A DNA stretch of 8,453 nucleotides from Naegleria gruberi (lineage: Eukaryota), in the NCBI GenBank assembly GCA_000004985.1, contig GG739068.1; one strand, 5' to 3'. A program made the translations under genes and the position numbers. The stretch's first letter is position 1. Each line of letters starts with the position of its first letter. The notes beneath the pieces are model-generated. The model saw nothing but the letters and a program-made list of their open reading frames with translations. It made no database searches and was not told the origin of the DNA. Shown in pieces: positions 1-8,453 of the stretch.

Positions 1-897
1 CACACCAGTAACTGTACTGGAAGTTAAATTCAATCCAGCAACAAACAATAATTGATTCACAACTGCCAAAGCTCCACACCAAGCCAATTGTTTTGATTGT
101 TTGAAACTTGGCAATCTGGCCAAAACAAACGAAGGTATCACTGCCTTATCATTATAGAATATAGAATAAATCCATCCCCAATATTTGCTTCCATAAATAG
201 ATGGATACTTTTTCCTAAATGCAAATGCTCGATTAATAAGTTTAGTTTCTGATTTAAATTTGAATTTTCTATCCACAAATAACATGATTGGAAAGAGTGA
301 AATAACCAAAACAACTCCTCTAAAGAAGGAAAATATAATTGGATTATAAATCTTCAAGCCATAGGGCGAGAGAATGAGAAATCCAGAAAATAATGTCAAA
401 TTGGTCCAAATCATCAAGTGTGCAATAACATTACCAGTTAGGAAATTCCAAATTCTTAATGGAATTGAAGTTGGTTTCTTATTGTTCCCTCCAACAACAC
501 CATTTTCAATATTATTATTATCCATTATATTATCTTGTTCTTCATCAATACTCATTGAATCGATTGTCGGGCCAGAATGTATAGAGGCTAACAAATCATG
601 ATGAGCAAAACCCGACGGTGAAGAAGGTGAAATTATTTGACTATTTCCTTCATCATTATTAATACCAATAGTACTACCATTATTATTACTATTAATATTA
701 TAACCGTCGTTACTCGAATGAAATGGGAAACTCGATGAAAAAGAGTGAGGTAAATGATCATTTTCCAACTCTCCATTATCCACCTCCTCTTCTTCTAATA
801 AATTAACATTACTACTCGTATAGTAAATTTCCTCATCCAATTCTTCTGCTTCTTCATAATTCATCAACCTCCGAATATTCTTCTTTTGTTGCTGCAT
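1..897 (-). CDS. Partial CDS for a predicted multi-pass membrane protein with an acidic, Asn/Ser-rich low-complexity N-terminus. It holds the N-terminal 299 codons, and the ORF continues past the window start. Protein family unassigned.
   Basis: I translated the reverse complement in 60-nt blocks. It reads as one continuous open frame from the ATG at 897-895 to position 1, with no stop codons. The first Met follows an in-frame TAA at 906-904. The translation begins MQQQKKNIRRLMNYEEAEELDEEIYYTSSNVNLLEEEEVDNGELENDHLPHSFSSSFPFHSSNDGYNINSNNNGSTIGINNDEGNSQIISPSSPSGFAHHDLLASIHSGPTIDSMSIDEEQDNIMDNNNIENGVVGGNNKKPTSIPLRIWNFLTGNVIAHLMIWTNLTLFSGFLILSPYGLKIYNPIIFSFFRGVVLVISLFPIMLFVDRKFKFKSETKLINRAFAFRKKYPSIYGSKYWGWIYSIFYNDKAVIPSFVLARLPSFKQSKQLAWCGALAVVNQLLFVAGLNLTSSTVTGV. 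Residues 1-145 are hydrophilic and low-complexity. They are followed by at least two clear hydrophobic helices (about aa 152-176, nt 370-444; and aa 185-208, nt 274-345), then a basic loop (DRKFKFKSETKLINRAFAFRKK) and further hydrophobic segments. Purely by chance, a 299-codon open frame is very unlikely in AT-rich DNA. The ORF is missing from the supplied track, probably because it runs off the window edge. I found no recognisable family motif by eye. Confidence 0.7.
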   Translation of the reverse strand, partial: MQQQKKNIRRLMNYEEAEELDEEIYYTSSNVNLLEEEEVDNGELENDHLPHSFSSSFPFHSSNDGYNINSNNNGSTIGINNDEGNSQIISPSSPSGFAHHDLLASIHSGPTIDSMSIDEEQDNIMDNNNIENGVVGGNNKKPTSIPLRIWNFLTGNVIAHLMIWTNLTLFSGFLILSPYGLKIYNPIIFSFFRGVVLVISLFPIMLFVDRKFKFKSETKLINRAFAFRKKYPSIYGSKYWGWIYSIFYNDKAVIPSFVLARLPSFKQSKQLAWCGALAVVNQLLFVAGLNLTSSTVTGV

Positions 898-1701: not shown

Positions 1702-4700
1702 NNNNNNNNNNNNNNNNNNNNNNNNNNNNNNNNNNNNNNNNNNNNNNNNNNNNNNNNNNNNNNNNNNNNNNNNNNNNNNNNNNNNNNNNNNNNNNNNNNN
1801 NNNNNNNNNNNNNNNNNNNNNNNNNNNNNNNNNNNNNNNNNNNNNNNNNNNNNNNNNNNNNNNNNNNNNNNNNNNNNNNNNNNNNNNNNNNNNNNNNNNN
1901 NNNNNNNNNNNNNNNNNNNNNNNNNNNNNNNNNNNNNNNNNNNNNNNNNNNNNNNNNNNNNNNNNNNNNNNNNNNNNNNNNNNNNNNNNNNNNNNNNNNN
2001 NNNNNNNNNNNNNNNNNNNNNNNNNNNNNNNNNNNNNNNNNNNNNNNNNNNNNNNNNNNNNNNNNNNNNNNNNNNNNNNNNNNNNNNNNNNNNNNNNNNN
2101 NNNNNNNNNNNNNNNNNNNNNNNNNNNNNNNNNNNNNNNNNNNNNNNNNNNNNNNNNNNNNNNNNNNNNNNNNNNNNNNNNNNNNNNNNNNNNNNNNNNN
2201 NNNNNNNNNNNNNNNNNNNNNNNNNNNNNNNNNNNNNNNNNNNNNNNNNNNNNNNNNNNNNNNNNNNNNNNNNNNNNNNNNNNNNNNNNNNNNNNNNNNN
2301 NNNNNNNNNNNNNNNNNNNNNNNNNNNNNNNNNNNNNNNNNNNNNNNNNNNNNNNNNNNNNNNNNNNNNNNNNNNNNNNNNNNNNNNNNNNNNNNNNNNN
2401 NNNNNNNNNNNNNNNNNNNNNNNNNNNNNNNNNNNNNNNNNNNNNNNNNNNNNNNNNNNNNNNNNNNNNNNNNNNNNNNNNNNNNNNNNNNNNNNNNNNN
2501 NNNNNNNNNNNNNNNNNNNNNNNNNNNNNNNNNNNNNNNNNNNNNNNNNNNNNNNNNNNNNNNNNNNNNNNNNNNNNNNNNNNNNNNNNNNNNNNNNNNN
2601 NNNNNNNNNNNNNNNNNNNNNNNNNNNNNNNNNNNNNNNNNNNNNNNNNNNNNNNNNNNNNNNNNNNNNNNNNNNNNNNNNNNNNNNNNNNNNNNNNNNN
2701 NNNNNNNNNNNNNNNNNNNNNNNNNNNNNNNNNNNNNNNNNNNNNNNNNNNNNNNNNNNNNNNNNNNNNNNNNNNNNNNNNNNNNNNNNNNNNNNNNNNN
2801 NNNNNNNNNNNNNNNNNNNNNNNNNNNNNNNNNNNNNNNNNNNNNNNNNNNNNNNNNNNNNNNNNNNNNNNNNNNNNNNNNNNNNNNNNNNNNNNNNNNN
2901 NNNNNNNNNNNNNNNNNNNNNNNNNNNNNNNNNNNNNNNNNNNNNNNNNNNNNNNNNNNNNNNNNNNNNNNNNNNNNNNNNNNNNNNNNNNNNNNNNNNN
3001 NNNNNNNNNNNNNNNNNNNNNNNNNNNNNNNNNNNNNNNNNNNNNNNNNNNNNNNNNNNNNNNNNNNNNNNNNNNNNNNNNNNNNNNNNNNNNNNNNNNN
3101 NNNNNNNNNNNNNNNNNNNNNNNNNNNNNNNNNNNNNNNNNNNNNNNNNNNNNNNNNNNNNNNNNNNNNNNNNNNNNNNNNNNNNNNNNNNNNNNNNNNN
3201 NNNNNNNNNNNNNNNNNNNNNNNNNNNNNNNNNNNNNNNNNNNNNNNNNNNNNNNNNNNNNNNNNNNNNNNNNNNNNNNNNNNNNNNNNNNNNNNNNNNN
3301 NNNNNNNNNNNNNNNNNNNNNNNNNNNNNNNNNNNNNNNNNNNNNNNNNNNNNNNNNNNNNNNNNNNNNNNNNNNNNNNNNNNNNNNNNNNNNNNNNNNN
3401 NNNNNNNNNNNNNNNNNNNNNNNNNNNNNNNNNNNNNNNNNNNNNNNNNNNNNNNNNNNNNNNNNNNNNNNNNNNNNNNNNNNNNNNNNNNNNNNNNNNN
3501 NNNNNNNNNNNNNNNNNNNNNNNNNNNNNNNNNNNNNNNNNNNNNNNNNNNNNNNNNNNNNNNNNNNNNNNNNNNNNNNNNNNNNNNNNNNNNNNNNNNN
3601 NNNNNNNNNNNNNNNNNNNNNNNNNNNNNNNNNNNNNNNNNNNNNNNNNNNNNNNNNNNNNNNNNNNNNNNNNNNNNNNNNNNNNNNNNNNNNNNNNNNN
3701 NNNNNNNNNNNNNNNNNNNNNNNNNNNNNNNNNNNNNNNNNNNNNNNNNNNNNNNNNNNNNNNNNNNNNNNNNNNNNNNNNNNNNNNNNNNNNNNNNNNN
3801 NNNNNNNNNNNNNNNNNNNNNNNNNNNNNNNNNNNNNNNNNNNNNNNNNNNNNNNNNNNNNNNNNNNNNNNNNNNNNNNNNNNNNNNNNNNNNNNNNNNN
3901 NNNNNNNNNNNNNNNNNNNNNNNNNNNNNNNNNNNNNNNNNNNNNNNNNNNNNNNNNNNNNNNNNNNNNNNNNNNNNNNNNNNNNNNNNNNNNNNNNNNN
4001 NNNNNNNNNNNNNNNNNNNNNNNNNNNNNNNNNNNNNNNNNNNNNNNNNNNNNNNNNNNNNNNNNNNNNNNNNNNNNNNNNNNNNNNNNNNNNNNNNNNN
4101 NNNNNNNNNNNNNNNNNNNNNNNNNNNNNNNNNNNNNNNNNNNNNNNNNNNNNNNNNNNNNNNNNNNNNNNNNNNNNNNNNNNNNNNNNNNNNNNNNNNN
4201 NNNNNNNNNNNNNNNNNNNNNNNNNNNNNNNNNNNNNNNNNNNNNNNNNNNNNNNNNNNNNNNNNNNNNNNNNNNNNNNNNNNNNNNNNNNNNNNNNNNN
4301 NNNNNNNNNNNNNNNNNNNNNNNNNNNNNNNNNNNNNNNNNNNNNNNNNNNNNNNNNNNNNNNNNNNNNNNNNNNNNNNNNNNNNNNNNNNNNNNNNNNN
4401 NNNNNNNNNNNNNNNNNNNNNNNNNNNNNNNNNNNNNNNNNNNNNNNNNNNNNNNNNNNNNNNNNNNNNNNNNNNNNNNNNNNNNNNNNNNNNNNNNNNN
4501 NNNNNNNNNNNNNNNNNNNNNNNNNNNNNNNNNNNNNNNNNNNNNNNNNNNNNNNNNNNNNNNNNNNNNNNNNNNNNNNNNNNNNNNNNNNNNNNNNNNN
4601 NNNNNNNNNNNNNNNNNNNNNNNNNNNNNNNNNNNNNNNNNNNNNNNNNNNNNNNNNNNNNNNNNNNNNNNNNNNNNNNNNNNNNNNNNNNNNNNNNNNN

Positions 4701-6497
4701 NNNNNNNNNNNNNNNNNNNNNNNNNNNNNNNNNNNNNNNNNNNNNNNNNNNNNNNNNNNNNNNNNNNNNNNNNNNNNNNNNNNNNNNNNNNNNNNNNNNN
4801 NNNNNNNNNNNNNNNNNNNNNNNNNNNNNNNNNNNNNNNNNNNNNNNNNNNNNNNNNNNNNNNNNNNNNNNNNNNNNNNNNNNNNNNNNNNNNNNNNNNN
4901 NNNNNNNNNNNNNNNNNNNNNNNNNNNNNNNNNNNNNNNNNNNNNNNNNNNNNNNNNNNNNNNNNNNNNNNNNNNNNNNNNNNNNNNNNNNNNNNNNNNN
5001 NNNNNNNNNNNNNNNNNNNNNNNNNNNNNNNNNNNNNNNNNNNNNNNNNNNNNNNNNNNNNNNNNNNNNNNNNNNNNNNNNNNNNNNNNNNNNNNNNNNN
5101 NNNNNNNNNNNNNNNNNNNNNNNNNNNNNNNNNNNNNNNNNNNNNNNNNNNNNNNNNNNNNNNNNNNNNNNNNNNNNNNNNNNNNNNNNNNNNNNNNNNN
5201 NNNNNNNNNNNNNNNNNNNNNNNNNNNNNNNNNNNNNNNNNNNNNNNNNNNNNNNNNNNNNNNNNNNNNNNNNNNNNNNNNNNNNNNNNNNNNNNNNNNN
5301 NNNNNNNNNNNNNNNNNNNNNNNNNNNNNNNNNNNNNNNNNNNNNNNNNNNNNNNNNNNNNNNNNNNNNNNNNNNNNNNNNNNNNNNNNNNNNNNNNNNN
5401 NNNNNNNNNNNNNNNNNNNNNNNNNNNNNNNNNNNNNNNNNNNNNNNNNNNNNNNNNNNNNNNNNNNNNNNNNNNNNNNNNNNNNNNNNNNNNNNNNNNN
5501 NNNNNNNNNNNNNNNNNNNNNNNNNNNNNNNNNNNNNNNNNNNNNNNNNNNNNNNNNNNNNNNNNNNNNNNNNNNNNNNNNNNNNNNNNNNNNNNNNNNN
5601 NNNNNNNNNNNNNNNNNNNNNNNNNNNNNNNNNNNNNNNNNNNNNNNNNNNNNNNNNNNNNNNNNNNNNNNNNNNNNNNNNNNNNNNNNNNNNNNNNNNN
5701 NNNNNNNNNNNNNNNNNNNNNNNNNNNNNNNNNNNNNNNNNNNNNNNNNNNNNNNNNNNNNNNNNNNNNNNNNNNNNNNNNNNNNNNNNNNNNNNNNNNN
5801 NNNNNNNNNNNNNNNNNNNNNNNNNNNNNNNNNNNNNNNNNNNNNNNNNNNNNNNNNNNNNNNNNNNNNNNNNNNNNNNNNNNNNNNNNNNNNNNNNNNN
5901 NNNNNNNNNNNNNNNNNNNNNNNNNNNNNNNNNNNNNNNNNNNNNNNNNNNNNNNNNNNNNNNNNNNNNNNNNNNNNNNNNNNNNNNNNNNNNNNNNNNN
6001 NNNNNNNNNNNNNNNNNNNNNNNNNNNNNNNNNNNNNNNNNNNNNNNNNNNNNNNNNNNNNNNNNNNNNNNNNNNNNNNNNNNNNNNNNNNNNNNNNNNN
6101 NNNNNNNNNNNNNNNNNNNNNNNNNNNNNNNNNNNNNNNNNNNNNNNNNNNNNNNNNNNNNNNNNNNNNNNNNNNNNNNNNNNNNNNNNNNNNNNNNNNN
6201 NNNNNNNNNNNNNNNNNNNNNNNNNNNNNNNNNNNNNNNNNNNNNNNNNNNNNNNNNNNNNNNNNNNNNNNNNNNNNNNNNNNNNNNNNNNNNNNNNNNN
6301 NNNNNNNNNNNNNNNNNNNNNNNNNNNNNNNNNNNNNNNNNNNNNNNNNNNNNNNNNNNNNNNNNNNNNNNNNNNNNNNNNNNNNNNNNNNNNNNNNNNN
6401 NNNNNNNNNNNNNNNNNNNNNNNNNNNNNNNNNNNNNNNNNNNNNNNNNNNNNNNNNNNNNNNNNNNNNNNNNNNNNNNNNNNNNNNNNNNNNNNNN
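1702..6497. other. Assembly gap (4796 consecutive N)
   Basis: The N run spans 1702-6497 without interruption. It is 56.7% of the window. No biological inference is possible inside it. Confidence 0.99.
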
Positions 6498-6686
6498 AAG
6501 TCTAAATCAAGATATCATCCAATTATCGCAGTTGACTATTCAACATGGCGATCAAGTAATAGTGTTGAAATTTGTGAGCTTTCCGAGAGAACTGCTCAGA
6601 TCTTACATGTTTGCACATCAATTTTGAAACCAATAACAGAGCTTGACGGATCAGAAAAGCAATTATTCAAGATTATTATCGAATGA
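6498..6686 (+). CDS. Probable C-terminal coding fragment of a gene whose body lies in the gap. Stop is TGA at 6684-6686. The frame upstream of 6600 is ambiguous, and a 44-nt intron at 6556-6599 is possible.
   Basis: Frame 0 is open for 62 codons from the gap edge to TGA 6684-6686 (KSKSRYHPIIAVDYSTWRSSNSVEICELSERTAQILHVCTSILKPITELDGSEKQLFKIIIE*). Frame 1 is also open for 42 codons, reading SLNQDIIQLSQLTIQHGDQ and continuing to TGA 6625-6627. A GTAATA donor at 6556 and a ctgctcAG acceptor at 6598-6599 would join frame 1 (ending on codon CAA 6553-6555) to frame 0 (starting ATC 6600) exactly in phase. Either reading ends at the TGA at 6686. I could not identify a family. Confidence 0.4.
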   Translation, partial: KSKSRYHPIIAVDYSTWRSSNSVEICELSERTAQILHVCTSILKPITELDGSEKQLFKIIIE

Positions 6687-6744
6687 ATGGGCAAAGTATT
6701 GAGAGAAATAAGAGCAAGCTTACCAAGTACAAGAATGTTTTTAG

Positions 6745-6906
6745 AACAATCAAGAGCAAAGCAAAAGCAAATTGGAGGGTGAGAATTCAAATGGTGAATC
6801 CACTGCAAGTGTAGTTGAAGAGATCCCTAGGAAGAAATCGAAGAAGGGTGATAATGATGTATCAAAGGAGAATGAAAAGAATAACAGTACTTCTGATTCT
6901 GATTAA
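6745..6906 (+). CDS. Candidate terminal coding exon encoding a Lys/Glu/Asp/Ser-rich C-terminal tail, ending at TAA 6904-6906
   Basis: A 53-codon open frame (NNQEQSKSKLEGENSNGESTASVVEEIPRKKSKKGDNDVSKENEKNNSTSDSD*) begins immediately after an acceptor-like gtttttAG at 6739-6744 and ends at TAA. AATAAA lies 33 nt downstream. The frame has no ATG, so it is absent from the ORF track. Possible upstream partners are ATGGGCAAA|gtattg (6687-6695, 49-nt intron, in phase) or a weak donor CAT|gtttgc at 6609 (136-nt intron, in phase with frame 0). Alternatively, this region is simply the 3' UTR of the gene ending at 6686. Confidence 0.3.
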   Translation, partial: NNQEQSKSKLEGENSNGESTASVVEEIPRKKSKKGDNDVSKENEKNNSTSDSD

Positions 6907-6938
6907 TTATTGTAAACAATCCTTTCGGAATTTAATTT

Positions 6939-6944
6939 AATAAA
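6939..6944 (+). terminator. Polyadenylation signal AATAAA
   Basis: A canonical AATAAA hexamer sits 33 nt after TAA 6904-6906 and about 253 nt after TGA 6684-6686. An A-rich run follows (taaaaaaaatggg). It is consistent with the 3' end of a plus-strand gene. Confidence 0.4.
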
Positions 6945-7045
6945 AAAAATGGGACACATTTTAACTTCCTTGCAACAATTTCGGTTAGTTGTTTTATTTG
7001 TATTGGTAATTGTTATTATGTAAAATTGAATGTGAAGAGAGCCCA

Positions 7046-7420
7046 AAGTAATGGTAATTTGTTATTTAATTTATTTATGTAGGTTGATTTGATGAAGATT
7101 TTAATGCAATAGGTGAGTCGGAGTACTACAATAATTTAATGGTAATTTGTTTAATTTATTTACAATTATTCAATTTAAATACAATAATATTAATTGATAT
7201 TCAACAATTTAATTAATCAGCAATGGTATTTGCAGAGGTTGATTTGATGAAGATTTTAATTCAATCGGGTGAGTCACGAGTATTACAATAATTTAATGGT
7301 AATTTGTTTAATTTATTTAATTTATTTAATTTATTTACAGTTATTCAATTTATTTACAGTTATTCAATTTAAATGCAATAGATTTATTGGATAATGATGA
7401 ATAATTTAATGGTAAGTAGC
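7046..7420. repeat. Degenerate tandem duplication with a ~155-bp unit and about 2.5 copies, plus internal micro-expansions
   Basis: Copy A spans 7081-7190 and copy B spans 7236-7380. Both begin aggttgatttgatgaagattttaat[g/t]caat[a/c]gggtgagtc and continue tacaataatttaatggtaatttgtttaatttattta...ttattcaatttaaat[a/g]caata. A partial copy lies upstream at 7046-7080 (agtaatggtaatttgttatttaatttatttatgt). A partial downstream echo, ataatttaatggtaa, lies at 7401-7415. Copy B carries an extra 3x aatttattta and a duplicated cagttattcaatttattta. All of this was aligned by eye. Confidence 0.75.
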
Positions 7421-7581
7421 TTGTTGGTGTTTCATTTCTGATGAATTAGATGAGAGGAAGTGAACGCTTTTAGTTGGAAGCAGGAAGTGAGTGAGTATAT
7501 TTTTTTCATATGGATTTAGTCGGAATTTCGGAACTTGGATTGACGACAACTCGACTTGGAATTTTATTAGAGTTGTGTGTA

Positions 7582-7609
7582 AATCATTAACAGTTTTTCG
7601 TTAATGATT
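7582..7609. repeat. Perfect 10-bp inverted repeat (hairpin)
   Basis: aatcattaac (7582-7591) pairs with gttaatgatt (7600-7609) as exact reverse complements around an 8-nt loop, agtttttc. Confidence 0.7.
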
Positions 7610-7640
7610 GATGACAATTATGAGTCAAATTTTATTGTGA

Positions 7641-7734
7641 AATATTGACGATTTTTCGCTAATGATTAACGTTTTTTGATAACAATTTTTCAATAATATT
7701 TAACGTTAAACATTATTGAAAAATCGTCAATAAT
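7641..7734. repeat. Imperfect ~94-bp palindrome (foldback or MITE-like element) sharing the TAATGATTAACG core
   Basis: The left arm is aatattgacgatttttcgctaatgattaacgtt (7641-7673). Its reverse complement matches the right arm, aacgttaaacattattgaaaaatcgtcaataat (7702-7734), at about 29 of 33 positions. The spacer is 28 nt and AT-rich. The core c[g/c]taatgatt[a/g]a also occurs in the neighbouring hairpin (7599-7609). Related fragments occur at 7751-7760 and 7822-7842. Confidence 0.65.
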
Positions 7735-8335
7735 TTACGATAAAATTTAGCGTTAATTTACCTGTAAATTTGAAATTTTTTTCCCAACAAACGTTTACGT
7801 TTTTATTTCGTTTTTTTTGTTAATTATTAACGAAAATCAATAAAGTTTGACTTGAATTTTTGTTAACAAAAGTGCGAAAAAATTAATGAAAAAATAAAAA
7901 TATTTACGTGGAAATATTTTAGCGGGCTGTTTTTGGCAAATTTTAAAATTTTTGAAAATATTAAAAATTGCTAGAGAGAATTACAAAATACTTGGATATA
8001 GAGACAACTTAATTGGTATAGGTATTGTACCTTTCATATAGGAGGTGAATATTCATTGTTTACTCCATTATTTTAATGATGGTTCAGCTCAATTCAAACA
8101 ATTTTCAAACAGGAGGTATTATTCTGCAAATTTTGAAAAGAATATGCAACAAACAAGAATGGGAAACTACTACAGTGAAGTTCAATCACCATTAGATGTT
8201 GTTTTTTGTCCAACTTTCATTGAAAAGTAGCAACAACAACAAAAAACTAAAGAGAATAAGAAATTTGAATTATCAGATGGACTTTTGTTAAAATAGGTGA
8301 AAAAAAATGACAGAACCATGTTAAGCAAGTATCTT

Positions 8336-8347
8336 TATATATAAATA
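8336..8347 (+). promoter_or_regulatory. TATA-like element (TATATATAAATA), speculative
   Basis: A strong TATAAATA-type match lies near the window end. No downstream gene is visible inside the window, and an AT-rich genome produces such matches by chance. Confidence 0.15.
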
Positions 8348-8453
8348 GTTTGTTGTTTCGAACCAATACTAATTTTCAACCTATCCGATAGTTCTCCACC
8401 AAACTAATATTTTGAAAATTTTTTAAAATATTAATAAATTGAAATTTTTAGAA

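What the first reader, a model, noticed from the sequence alone, without database searches (positions are those of the whole stretch)
7046..7420. Tandem ~155-bp duplication carrying repeated consensus splice-donor and acceptor-like motifs
Each copy contains an acceptor-like ...tatgtAG or tttgcAG, then a 30-31-nt segment GTTGATTTGATGAAGATTTTAAT.CAAT.G, then a perfect donor (A/G)G|GTGAGTC at 7113 and at 7269. About 50-70 nt further on come acceptors tttatttacAG at 7340 and 7359. Copy A has caa in place of cag at that position. A further perfect donor, aatG|GTAAGTAg, sits at 7412. The segment between acceptor and donor has stops in every frame in copy A. In copy B it encodes only M-V-F-A-E-V-D-L-M-K-I-L-I-Q-S. 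It is therefore not convincing coding sequence. Candidate explanations are a duplicated non-coding or UTR micro-exon cassette, part of a repeat-derived ncRNA, or a satellite that happens to mimic splice signals. The internal 10-mer (aatttattta) and 19-mer expansions show the array is actively slipping.
Basis: seen in the sequence. Interest (0 to 1): 0.5.

Follow-up and report, generated by a model that had tools for sequence, protein, structure and literature searches.

The report
Ordinary tandem duplication in Naegleria spacer
This is a real but young and probably functionless two-copy duplication of about 155 bases in AT-rich non-coding DNA of the amoeba Naegleria gruberi, lying just downstream of a broken gene copy, and its splice-site look-alikes were mostly multiplied by the duplication itself.

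Summary
The window is a whole 8453-bp scaffold of Naegleria gruberi NEG-M. It has a 4.8-kb N gap at 1702-6497 and looks like a haplotig.

Bases 7068-7411 form a 2.2-copy tandem array of period 155-157. The two copies are about 89% identical over aligned columns. Copy B also carries 9-nt and 19-nt slippage arrays. A further GTGAGTGAGT lies at 7487-7496, outside the finding.

The array lies 140-510 nt downstream of the stop codon of a decayed + strand copy of the Naegleria-specific gene family NAEGRDRAFT_54818. That copy has at least three frameshifts and one nonsense codon.

- **Not coding:** copy A has stops in all frames, and a 1-nt indel separates the two "exons".
- **No RNA structure:** all fold z-scores are positive, and Rfam finds nothing.
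- **No selection visible:** "exon" and "intron" parts have diverged alike.
- **One residual signal:** strong donor hexamers are enriched on the + strand (5 against 0.8 expected). Collapsing the duplication and the overlapping pair leaves three independent sites (P about 0.05).

My best reading is a neutral duplication by slippage or unequal exchange. A spliced non-coding transcript is not excluded, because RNA data and the rest of the genome were out of reach. Interest is low.

The parts
7046..7080 (+). Leading partial copy of the head motif (TAATGGTAATTTGTT.ATTTAATTTATTTA) that recurs inside each unit
   Evidence: the repeat finder D6/D7 gives 7049-7063 = 7137-7151 = 7294-7308 at 100%. AATGGTA occurs at 7050, 7138, 7222, 7295 and 7408.
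7081..7235 (+). Unit A of the tandem duplication (155 nt)
   Evidence: Period 155-157.
7236..7420 (+). Unit B of the tandem duplication (185 nt, which is 155 nt plus 37 nt of internal expansion minus small deletions)
   Evidence: It is 89.5% identical to unit A over aligned columns.
7083..7112 (+). 'Exon-like' 30-nt segment of unit A (GTTGATTTGATGAAGATTTTAATGCAATAG); stops in all three frames
   Evidence: Read from the sequence.
7236..7268 (+). 'Exon-like' 33-nt segment of unit B; open in one frame only (VDLMKILIQS); differs from A by G>T, A>C and a 1-nt insertion
   Evidence: Read from the sequence and from the alignments.
7112..7119 (+). Donor-like GGTGAGTC, copy A
7268..7275 (+). Donor-like GGTGAGTC, copy B (a duplicate of the copy A site, not an independent event)
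7300..7337 (+). 9-nt slippage array (TAATTTATT) present in copy B only
   Evidence: TRF reports period 9. AATTTATTTA starts at 7310, 7319 and 7328.
7310..7371 (+). 19-nt slippage array (AATTTATTTACAGTTATTC), 3.3 copies at 93% match; its duplication created the two TTTACAG acceptor-like sites ending at 7340 and 7359
   Evidence: TRF. CAGTTATTCAATTTA occurs at 7338 and 7357.
7400..7422 (+). Third copy of AATAATTTAATGGTAA..., here ending GGTAAGTAG (donor-like, GT at 7412); it marks the start of a truncated third unit
   Evidence: the repeat finder D3 gives 87% identity to 7130-7152 and 7287-7309.
7487..7496 (+). Additional donor-like GTGAGTGAGT just outside the array
6505..6906 (+). Context: decayed copy of the NAEGRDRAFT_54818 gene family (matches P0004 residues 95-231 only by hopping frames 2>1>3>2); TGA at 6684-6686 where P0004 has Cys; stop TAA at 6904-6906
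   Evidence: Sequence read.
6939..6944 (+). Context: AATAAA hexamer 33 nt after the stop codon, a possible polyadenylation signal that would end the upstream transcript before the array
   Evidence: Read from the sequence. Its function is inferred.

Best explanation
The feature is a young, selectively neutral local tandem duplication in AT-rich, C-poor non-coding DNA of Naegleria gruberi. It has about 2.2 copies of a 155-nt unit. It lies 140-510 nt downstream of the stop codon of a frameshifted copy of a Naegleria-specific gene.

The most likely origin is replication slippage or unequal exchange between short direct repeats already present there, the AATGGTAATTTGTT... motif that recurs five times. 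One copy has kept slipping since, through its 9-nt and 19-nt internal arrays. One GGTGAGTC and one TTTACAG were copied by these events, which gives the look of an ordered exon and intron cassette.

Shown: the duplication, the slippage, the lack of coding capacity, the lack of RNA structure, and the decayed upstream gene. Inferred: the mechanism of origin and the absence of function.
For: Organism and context:
- The minus-strand ORF 1-897 is 100% identical to a N. gruberi protein whose contig is 8453 bp long.
- It is 98% identical to NAEGRDRAFT_62140 on a 941,567-bp scaffold.
- N. gruberi is 33% GC and 57.8% coding, with 5.1% repeats (PMC8296547; PMC9928731).

Duplication and slippage.

Signs of neutral divergence:
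- Differences are spread over both the 'exon' and the 'intron' parts.
- A 1-nt indel lies inside the 'exon'.
- Copy A has stops in all three frames.

No RNA structure: z from +0.27 to +1.96 on both strands. Rfam finds no match in the region even at E<=10.

The upstream gene is decayed. Window 6505-6888 matches P0004 (NAEGRDRAFT_54818) only across three frame changes and one TGA. An AATAAA follows its stop, ahead of the array.

The donor count shrinks to about three independent sites once the duplication and the overlapping pair are collapsed.

No other copy of the unit occurs in the window.
Against: - All five GTRAGT hexamers of the window lie on the + strand within 7113-7496. That is the strand of the upstream gene, and none lies on the other strand or in the left arm. 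The enrichment is P=0.0005 raw and 0.008 with the duplication collapsed.
- The region shows G>C and T>A skew (C 6%, G 15%, T 43.5%). This is compatible with a transcribed sense strand.
- Donor and acceptor pairs would give intron-like lengths of 62-123 nt with yUnAy motifs.
- No transcript data and no genome-wide copy count could be obtained, so absence of function is inferred and not shown.
Confidence: 0.72

Rival explanations
1. The array is part of an unannotated spliced, non-coding stretch of a + strand transcript. This could be a 3' UTR extension of the NAEGRDRAFT_54818-like gene or a separate lncRNA. The 30-33-nt segments would be duplicated non-coding micro-exons, and 7113-7235, 7269-7340/7359 and 7412-7473 would be real introns.
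For: - GTRAGT occurs only on the + strand and is clustered at 7113-7496. The count is 5 against 0.80 expected, P=0.0005, and still P=0.008 after collapsing the duplication.
- Candidate introns are 62-123 nt long, with YAG acceptors and yUnAy motifs at 8-45 nt. TopHat mapping in Naegleria uses a minimum intron of 30 bp, and the mean N. gruberi intron is 203 bp (PMC8296547).
- The G>C and T>A skew is on the same strand as the upstream gene.
Against: - The upstream gene copy is frameshifted and carries a nonsense codon.
- AATAAA lies between its stop and the array.
- The 'exon' is no better conserved between copies than the 'intron', and it carries an indel.
- Poly-pyrimidine content before the acceptors is only 0.35-0.65.
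- Counting independent loci, the enrichment is only 3 against 0.8, P about 0.05.
- yUnAy and YAG are near-ubiquitous in 80% A+T sequence.
Confidence: 0.15
2. The unit belongs to a dispersed repeat family of N. gruberi, such as a MITE-like or introner-like element or a subtelomeric or unplaced-scaffold repeat. The two copies here would be neighbouring members, not a local duplication.
For: - The window is a small unplaced scaffold. Its + strand gene has a paralogue on another small (8000-bp) contig.
- A strong 122-nt inverted repeat (z=-7.3) lies 200 nt downstream. This shows that repeat-type DNA is nearby.
- The 'intron-like' part begins GTGAGT and ends ACAG, as introners do.
Against: - The copies are strictly head to tail and share their flanking head motif, as expected of a local duplication.
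- No terminal inverted repeats or target-site duplications bound the unit.
- No further copy occurs in the other 3.3 kb of the window.
- The conserved 23-24-mers have no exact matches in the metagenome, viral or prokaryotic collections. Those collections do not hold the Naegleria genome, so this evidence is weak.
Confidence: 0.08
3. The units are small RNA genes of the spliced-leader or snRNA type. Each would have a short leader followed by a GT donor and an Sm-like site (AAUUUGU in GGTAATTTGTT), and they would be arranged in tandem as SL RNA genes often are.
For: The layout resembles one superficially: about 30 nt, then GGTGAGT, then a U-rich AAUUUG motif about 30 nt downstream, all in tandem copies. 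Euglenozoa, which belong with Heterolobosea in Discoba, use SL trans-splicing (own knowledge).
Against: - No Rfam family matches, SL RNA or snRNA families included, even at E<=10.
- Folds are weaker than shuffled controls.
- The Sm-like motif lacks the flanking stem-loops and the purine expected after the G.
- The putative leader is not better conserved than the rest.
- A full-text search for Naegleria with 'spliced leader' and 'trans-splicing' listed 15 papers. No title or abstract among them reports SL trans-splicing in Naegleria, and only one was opened.
Confidence: 0.01

Closest known systems
Local tandem duplication or minisatellite formed by replication slippage or unequal exchange in non-coding DNA
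   Same: It has head-to-tail copies, short direct repeats at the unit junctions, nested shorter slippage arrays, divergence spread evenly along the unit, and no coding or structural constraint.
   Different: There are only about 2.2 copies, so it is not an array of satellite size. Copy-number polymorphism between haplotypes could not be checked.
Tandemly duplicated (mutually exclusive) exon cassettes
   Same: A short segment flanked by AG and GT is duplicated in tandem together with its flanks.
   Different: The segments do not keep a common open frame. Copy A is closed in all frames and a 1-nt indel separates the copies. They lie downstream of a stop codon and an AATAAA, not inside a coding gene.
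Rogers' tandem-duplication model of intron gain (duplication of an AGGT-containing segment creates a donor and an acceptor one unit apart)
   Same: Copy A carries ATAG|GTGAGT. A perfect duplicate would provide a donor in copy A and an AG one unit (155 nt) downstream.
   Different: At the equivalent position copy B reads TCGG|GTGAGT, so there is no AG and the exact one-unit intron cannot form. There is no host exon to restore.
Introner elements (repeat families that carry their own splice sites)
   Same: A repeated segment starts GTGAGT and ends ...TTTACAG, with a length of 72-123 nt.
   Different: Only two adjacent copies are seen, and they do not lie inside coding exons. Genome-wide copy number could not be tested.
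Spliced-leader RNA gene arrays
   Same: Tandem units carry a short segment followed by a consensus donor.
   Different: There is no Rfam match, no stable stem-loops and no proper Sm site. The unit is far more A+T-rich than known SL RNAs.

Membership tests
Tandem duplication / minisatellite | Two or more head-to-tail copies of one unit with a constant period | tested here: met
   Period 155-157, 2.2 copies over 7068-7411. The copies are 89.5% identical over aligned columns.
Tandem duplication / minisatellite | Signs of ongoing slippage (nested shorter arrays, copy-specific expansions) | tested here: met
   9-nt and 19-nt arrays at 7300-7371 occur in copy B only.
Satellite / dispersed repeat family | Many copies, either at one locus or dispersed through the genome | not testable with these tools
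   The N. gruberi assembly is not in any searchable collection. The look-up of encoding contigs has no record for P0001, P0002 or P0004. Exact-pattern scans elsewhere gave 0 hits. Within the window there is no further copy.
Duplicated coding (mutually exclusive) exons | Both copies keep an open reading frame in the same phase | tested here: not met
   Copy A 7083-7112 has a stop in every frame. Copy B is open in one frame. A 1-nt indel lies between them.
Duplicated coding (mutually exclusive) exons | Location inside a protein-coding gene | tested here: not met
   The array lies 140 nt or more downstream of the TAA at 6904-6906 of a frameshifted gene copy. The C-terminal peptide of P0004 has no match downstream (P=0.98).
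Spliced non-coding exons (UTR or lncRNA) | Transcription and splice junctions observed in RNA | not testable with these tools
   No RNA-seq or EST resource was available. Look-ups of window ORFs in the assembly index found nothing.
Spliced non-coding exons (UTR or lncRNA) | Splice-site motifs beyond chance | tested here: inconclusive
   GTRAGT occurs 5 times against 0.80 expected (P=0.0005). With the duplication collapsed the count is 4 (P=0.008). As independent loci it is 3 (P about 0.05).
Structured ncRNA / SL RNA / snRNA | A stable or conserved secondary structure, or a match to a curated family | tested here: not met
   Fold z-scores run from +0.27 to +1.96 for both units on both strands. 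Rfam has no match in 7046-7420 at E<=10.
Introner / MITE-like element | Terminal inverted repeats or target-site duplications bounding the unit | tested here: not met
   The repeat finder reports only short AT-rich palindromes inside the units and no bounding inverted repeats.

The most novel reading that the evidence does not exclude
The cluster of strong U1-type 5' splice-site motifs on the + strand (7113, 7269, 7412, 7487/7491) may be functional. In that reading the tandem duplication has multiplied a small non-coding exon and intron cassette in the 3' region of a Naegleria-specific multi-copy gene. That would give alternative spliced 3' ends, and it would be a live example of splice-site or intron creation by tandem duplication in a heterolobosean.
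Probability: 0.06. Interest if true: 0.4.

Novelty: new member of a known kind. Interest (0 to 1): 0.1.

Why it matters
It matters little. The finding shows how a single duplication plus micro-slippage in 80% A+T DNA can create what looks like an ordered set of splice donors and acceptors. That is a useful caution for reading raw sequence and for gene prediction in AT-rich protist genomes. If RNA data showed the sites to be used, it would be a modest case study of splice-site birth by tandem duplication in Naegleria.

Tried and rejected
1. **Protein-coding micro-exons: rejected.** Copy A has stops in all frames, and an indel separates the copies.
2. **Joining the upstream ORF or the small ORF starting at ATG 6949 to the 'exons': rejected.** Every phase I worked out by hand from the sequence hits a stop within a few codons.
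3. **Structured RNA or SL RNA: rejected.** Rfam finds nothing and the folds are no better than shuffles.
4. **Fetching the allelic or paralogous loci: failed.** P0001, P0002 and P0004 are not on record in the look-up of encoding contigs. Window ORFs are not on record either.
5. **Exact-pattern scans of the 24-mer 'exon' core and the 23-mer head motif: 0 hits.** I scanned the metagenome and prokaryote-genome collections with both patterns and the viral collection with the 24-mer only. These collections do not contain Naegleria, so the result says little.
6. **Word-index protein searches with chimeric ORF queries: nothing found.** The exhaustive HMMER search then found P0004, so those two negatives are unreliable and I do not use them.
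7. **P0003 and P0005: dismissed.** They are low-complexity repeat proteins (one is from a newt), and I treat the matches as spurious.
8. **The idea that the C-terminal DAIRIGASGFN of P0004 corresponds to the read-through frame NAIGESEYYNN of copy A: rejected.** Its best score is below the mean for shuffled peptides (P=0.98).
9. **Viral origin of the P0004 family: no relatives in IMG/VR.**
10. **Literature:** no paper mentions the locus tags. No paper links introners or SL trans-splicing to this kind of element in Naegleria. The Cell 2010 genome paper is not held.

Full report
**What the window is.** The window holds real sequence only at 1-1701 and 6498-8453. Bases 1702-6497 are a run of N. 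The minus-strand ORF 1-897 is 100% identical to 'predicted protein, partial [Naegleria gruberi]' (XP_002668429), whose contig is 8453 bp long. The window is therefore a complete small scaffold of N. gruberi NEG-M. The same 90% cluster holds the full-length 587-aa EamA-family protein NAEGRDRAFT_62140 on a 941,567-bp scaffold. That protein is 98% identical, with one 4-aa indel and one substitution. The left arm thus looks like a haplotig or a very recent duplicate of a main-scaffold region. For background, N. gruberi is 33% GC and 57.8% coding, has 1.7 exons per gene and a mean intron of 203 bp (PMC8296547), and carries 5.1% repeats (PMC9928731).

**Checking the observation.**
- The repeat finder pairs 7072-7113 with 7227-7268 (86%) and 7121-7162 with 7278-7319 (98%), at spacing 155-157.
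- TRF with stringent penalties reports only the internal 9-nt and 19-nt arrays at 7300-7371.
- TRF with relaxed penalties reports 7068-7411, period 155, 2.2 copies, 76% matches and 7% indels.
- A global alignment gives 136 matches and 16 mismatches (89.5%). The main gap is a 37-nt expansion in copy B, made of two extra 9-nt units and one extra 19-nt unit.
- The 'aatttattta' repeat steps by 9 nt, not 10.

The array has a higher-order build. A head motif (AATGGTAATTTGTT.ATTTAATTTATTTA) occurs at 7050, 7138 and 7295, in shortened form at 7222, and as GGTAAGTAG at 7408. It alternates with two kinds of body. These short direct repeats are the kind of substrate on which slippage or unequal exchange acts.

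**What surrounds it.** The + strand upstream (6498-6906) is purine-rich like coding sense strand. No single frame stays open. An exhaustive HMMER search with the 62-aa frame-1 ORF found P0004, 'hypothetical protein NAEGRDRAFT_54818, partial [Naegleria gruberi]'. It is 242 aa long and sits on another small 8000-bp contig.

Mapping P0004 back shows that window 6505-6888 covers its residues 95-231 only by hopping frames:
- frame 2 over 6505-6570
- frame 1 over 6567-6695
- frame 3 over 6692-6769
- frame 2 again over 6766-6888

TGA at 6684-6686 stands where P0004 has Cys. Two of the shifts look like the loss of one A from an A-run (6693-6695 and 6769-6771). That is inferred from the protein alignment and the sequence. 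The first shift is a deletion of about 19 nt relative to P0004.

The gene upstream of the array is therefore a decayed paralogue, or less likely poor sequence beside the gap. Its stop is TAA at 6904-6906, and an AATAAA follows at 6939-6944. The array starts about 140 nt after the stop. P0004 has no Pfam domain above threshold and no relatives in IMG/VR.

Downstream (7561-8453) is A+T-rich with no convincing ORF. It contains a strong 122-nt inverted repeat.

**Is it coding?** No. The 30-nt segment of copy A is closed in all three frames. Copy B is open in one frame. The copies differ by two substitutions and a 1-nt indel inside the 'exon'. No phase that I worked out by hand from the sequence, joining the upstream ORF or the small ORF at ATG 6949 to the 'exons', stays open. 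The 42-44-codon read-through ORFs (7088-7213 and 7260-7391) are about what chance gives at this composition, by my own estimate of roughly one per region. The C-terminal 11 residues of P0004, which the window lacks, have no match downstream (P=0.98).

**Is it a structured RNA?** No. Both units, on both strands and with two choices of boundaries, fold no better than dinucleotide shuffles (z from +0.27 to +1.96). Rfam at E<=10 gives nothing in the region, and ARAGORN finds nothing. An SL-RNA-like reading fails on structure and on the Sm site.

**Are the splice-like motifs more than chance?** Partly.
- GGTRAGT occurs 3 times against 0.42 expected.
- GTRAGT occurs 5 times, all on the + strand between 7113 and 7496. 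None occurs elsewhere on either strand. The expected number is 0.80, giving P=0.0005.
- 7113 and 7269 are copies of one site, and 7487 and 7491 overlap.
- With the duplication collapsed the count is 4 (P=0.008). As independent loci it is 3 (P about 0.05).
- The two TTTACAG acceptors are copies made by the 19-nt slippage.
- Candidate introns of 62-123 nt can be drawn with yUnAy motifs. Such motifs are nearly unavoidable in 80% A+T DNA, and the poly-pyrimidine content is modest.

A weak residual signal remains: strand-specific donor enrichment, with G>C and T>A skew on the gene's strand. It keeps a spliced non-coding transcript alive as a rival at about 15%.

**Verdict.** The best-supported account is a neutral, recent tandem duplication with continuing micro-slippage in non-coding DNA downstream of a pseudogene-like gene copy (confidence 0.72). 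The duplication, the slippage, the lack of coding capacity, the lack of structure and the decayed neighbour are shown. The mechanism of origin and the lack of function are inferred.

Two decisive tests could not be run, because no tool gave access to the N. gruberi assembly or its transcript data (scans cover other collections). They are a genome-wide BLASTN of the unit and RNA-seq junction analysis.

The feature is an ordinary instance of a known kind and interest is low. The most novel reading not excluded is that the duplication has multiplied a functional non-coding exon and intron cassette. I give that about 6%.

Noticed in passing
window 7627-7748: A near-perfect 122-nt inverted repeat has 47-nt arms that are 87% complementary and a 28-nt loop. 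It folds as a DNA hairpin of -31.2 kcal/mol (z=-7.3, 0 of 200 shuffles as stable). Related CGTTAATGATT-type motifs occur in both orientations over 7590-7840. The only Rfam match is a sub-threshold MIR861-like hit (22.9 bits against a gathering score of 70). It looks like a MITE or a hairpin-RNA precursor.
   Followed up: partly
window 6505-6906 (+): This is a frameshifted copy of the Naegleria-specific gene family NAEGRDRAFT_54818 (P0004, on another 8000-bp contig). The frame order is 2>1>3>2, and TGA at 6684-6686 replaces a Cys codon. Two of the shifts look like single-A losses in A-runs. It is either a pseudogene or error-prone sequence next to the gap.
   Followed up: yes
window 1-897 (-) and the whole scaffold: The window is an entire 8453-bp N. 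gruberi scaffold with a 4796-nt N gap (1702-6497). Its EamA-family gene fragment is 98% identical to NAEGRDRAFT_62140 on a 941-kb scaffold and differs by a 4-aa SIGI repeat indel. The scaffold is therefore probably a haplotig.
   Followed up: partly
window 7412-7496: GTAAGT at 7412, CTTTTAG ending at 7473, a 13-nt stretch TTGGAAGCAGGAA, and then GTGAGTGAGT at 7487-7496 together form one more intron-like and micro-exon-like arrangement. It lies outside the duplicated units, in a locally G-rich stretch (28% G over 7421-7560).
   Followed up: partly
The word-index protein search missed P0004, even though the queries contained stretches that match it closely, one of about 25 residues exactly. The exhaustive HMMER search found it. 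Negatives from the word-index tool with short or chimeric queries should not be trusted.
   Followed up: yes
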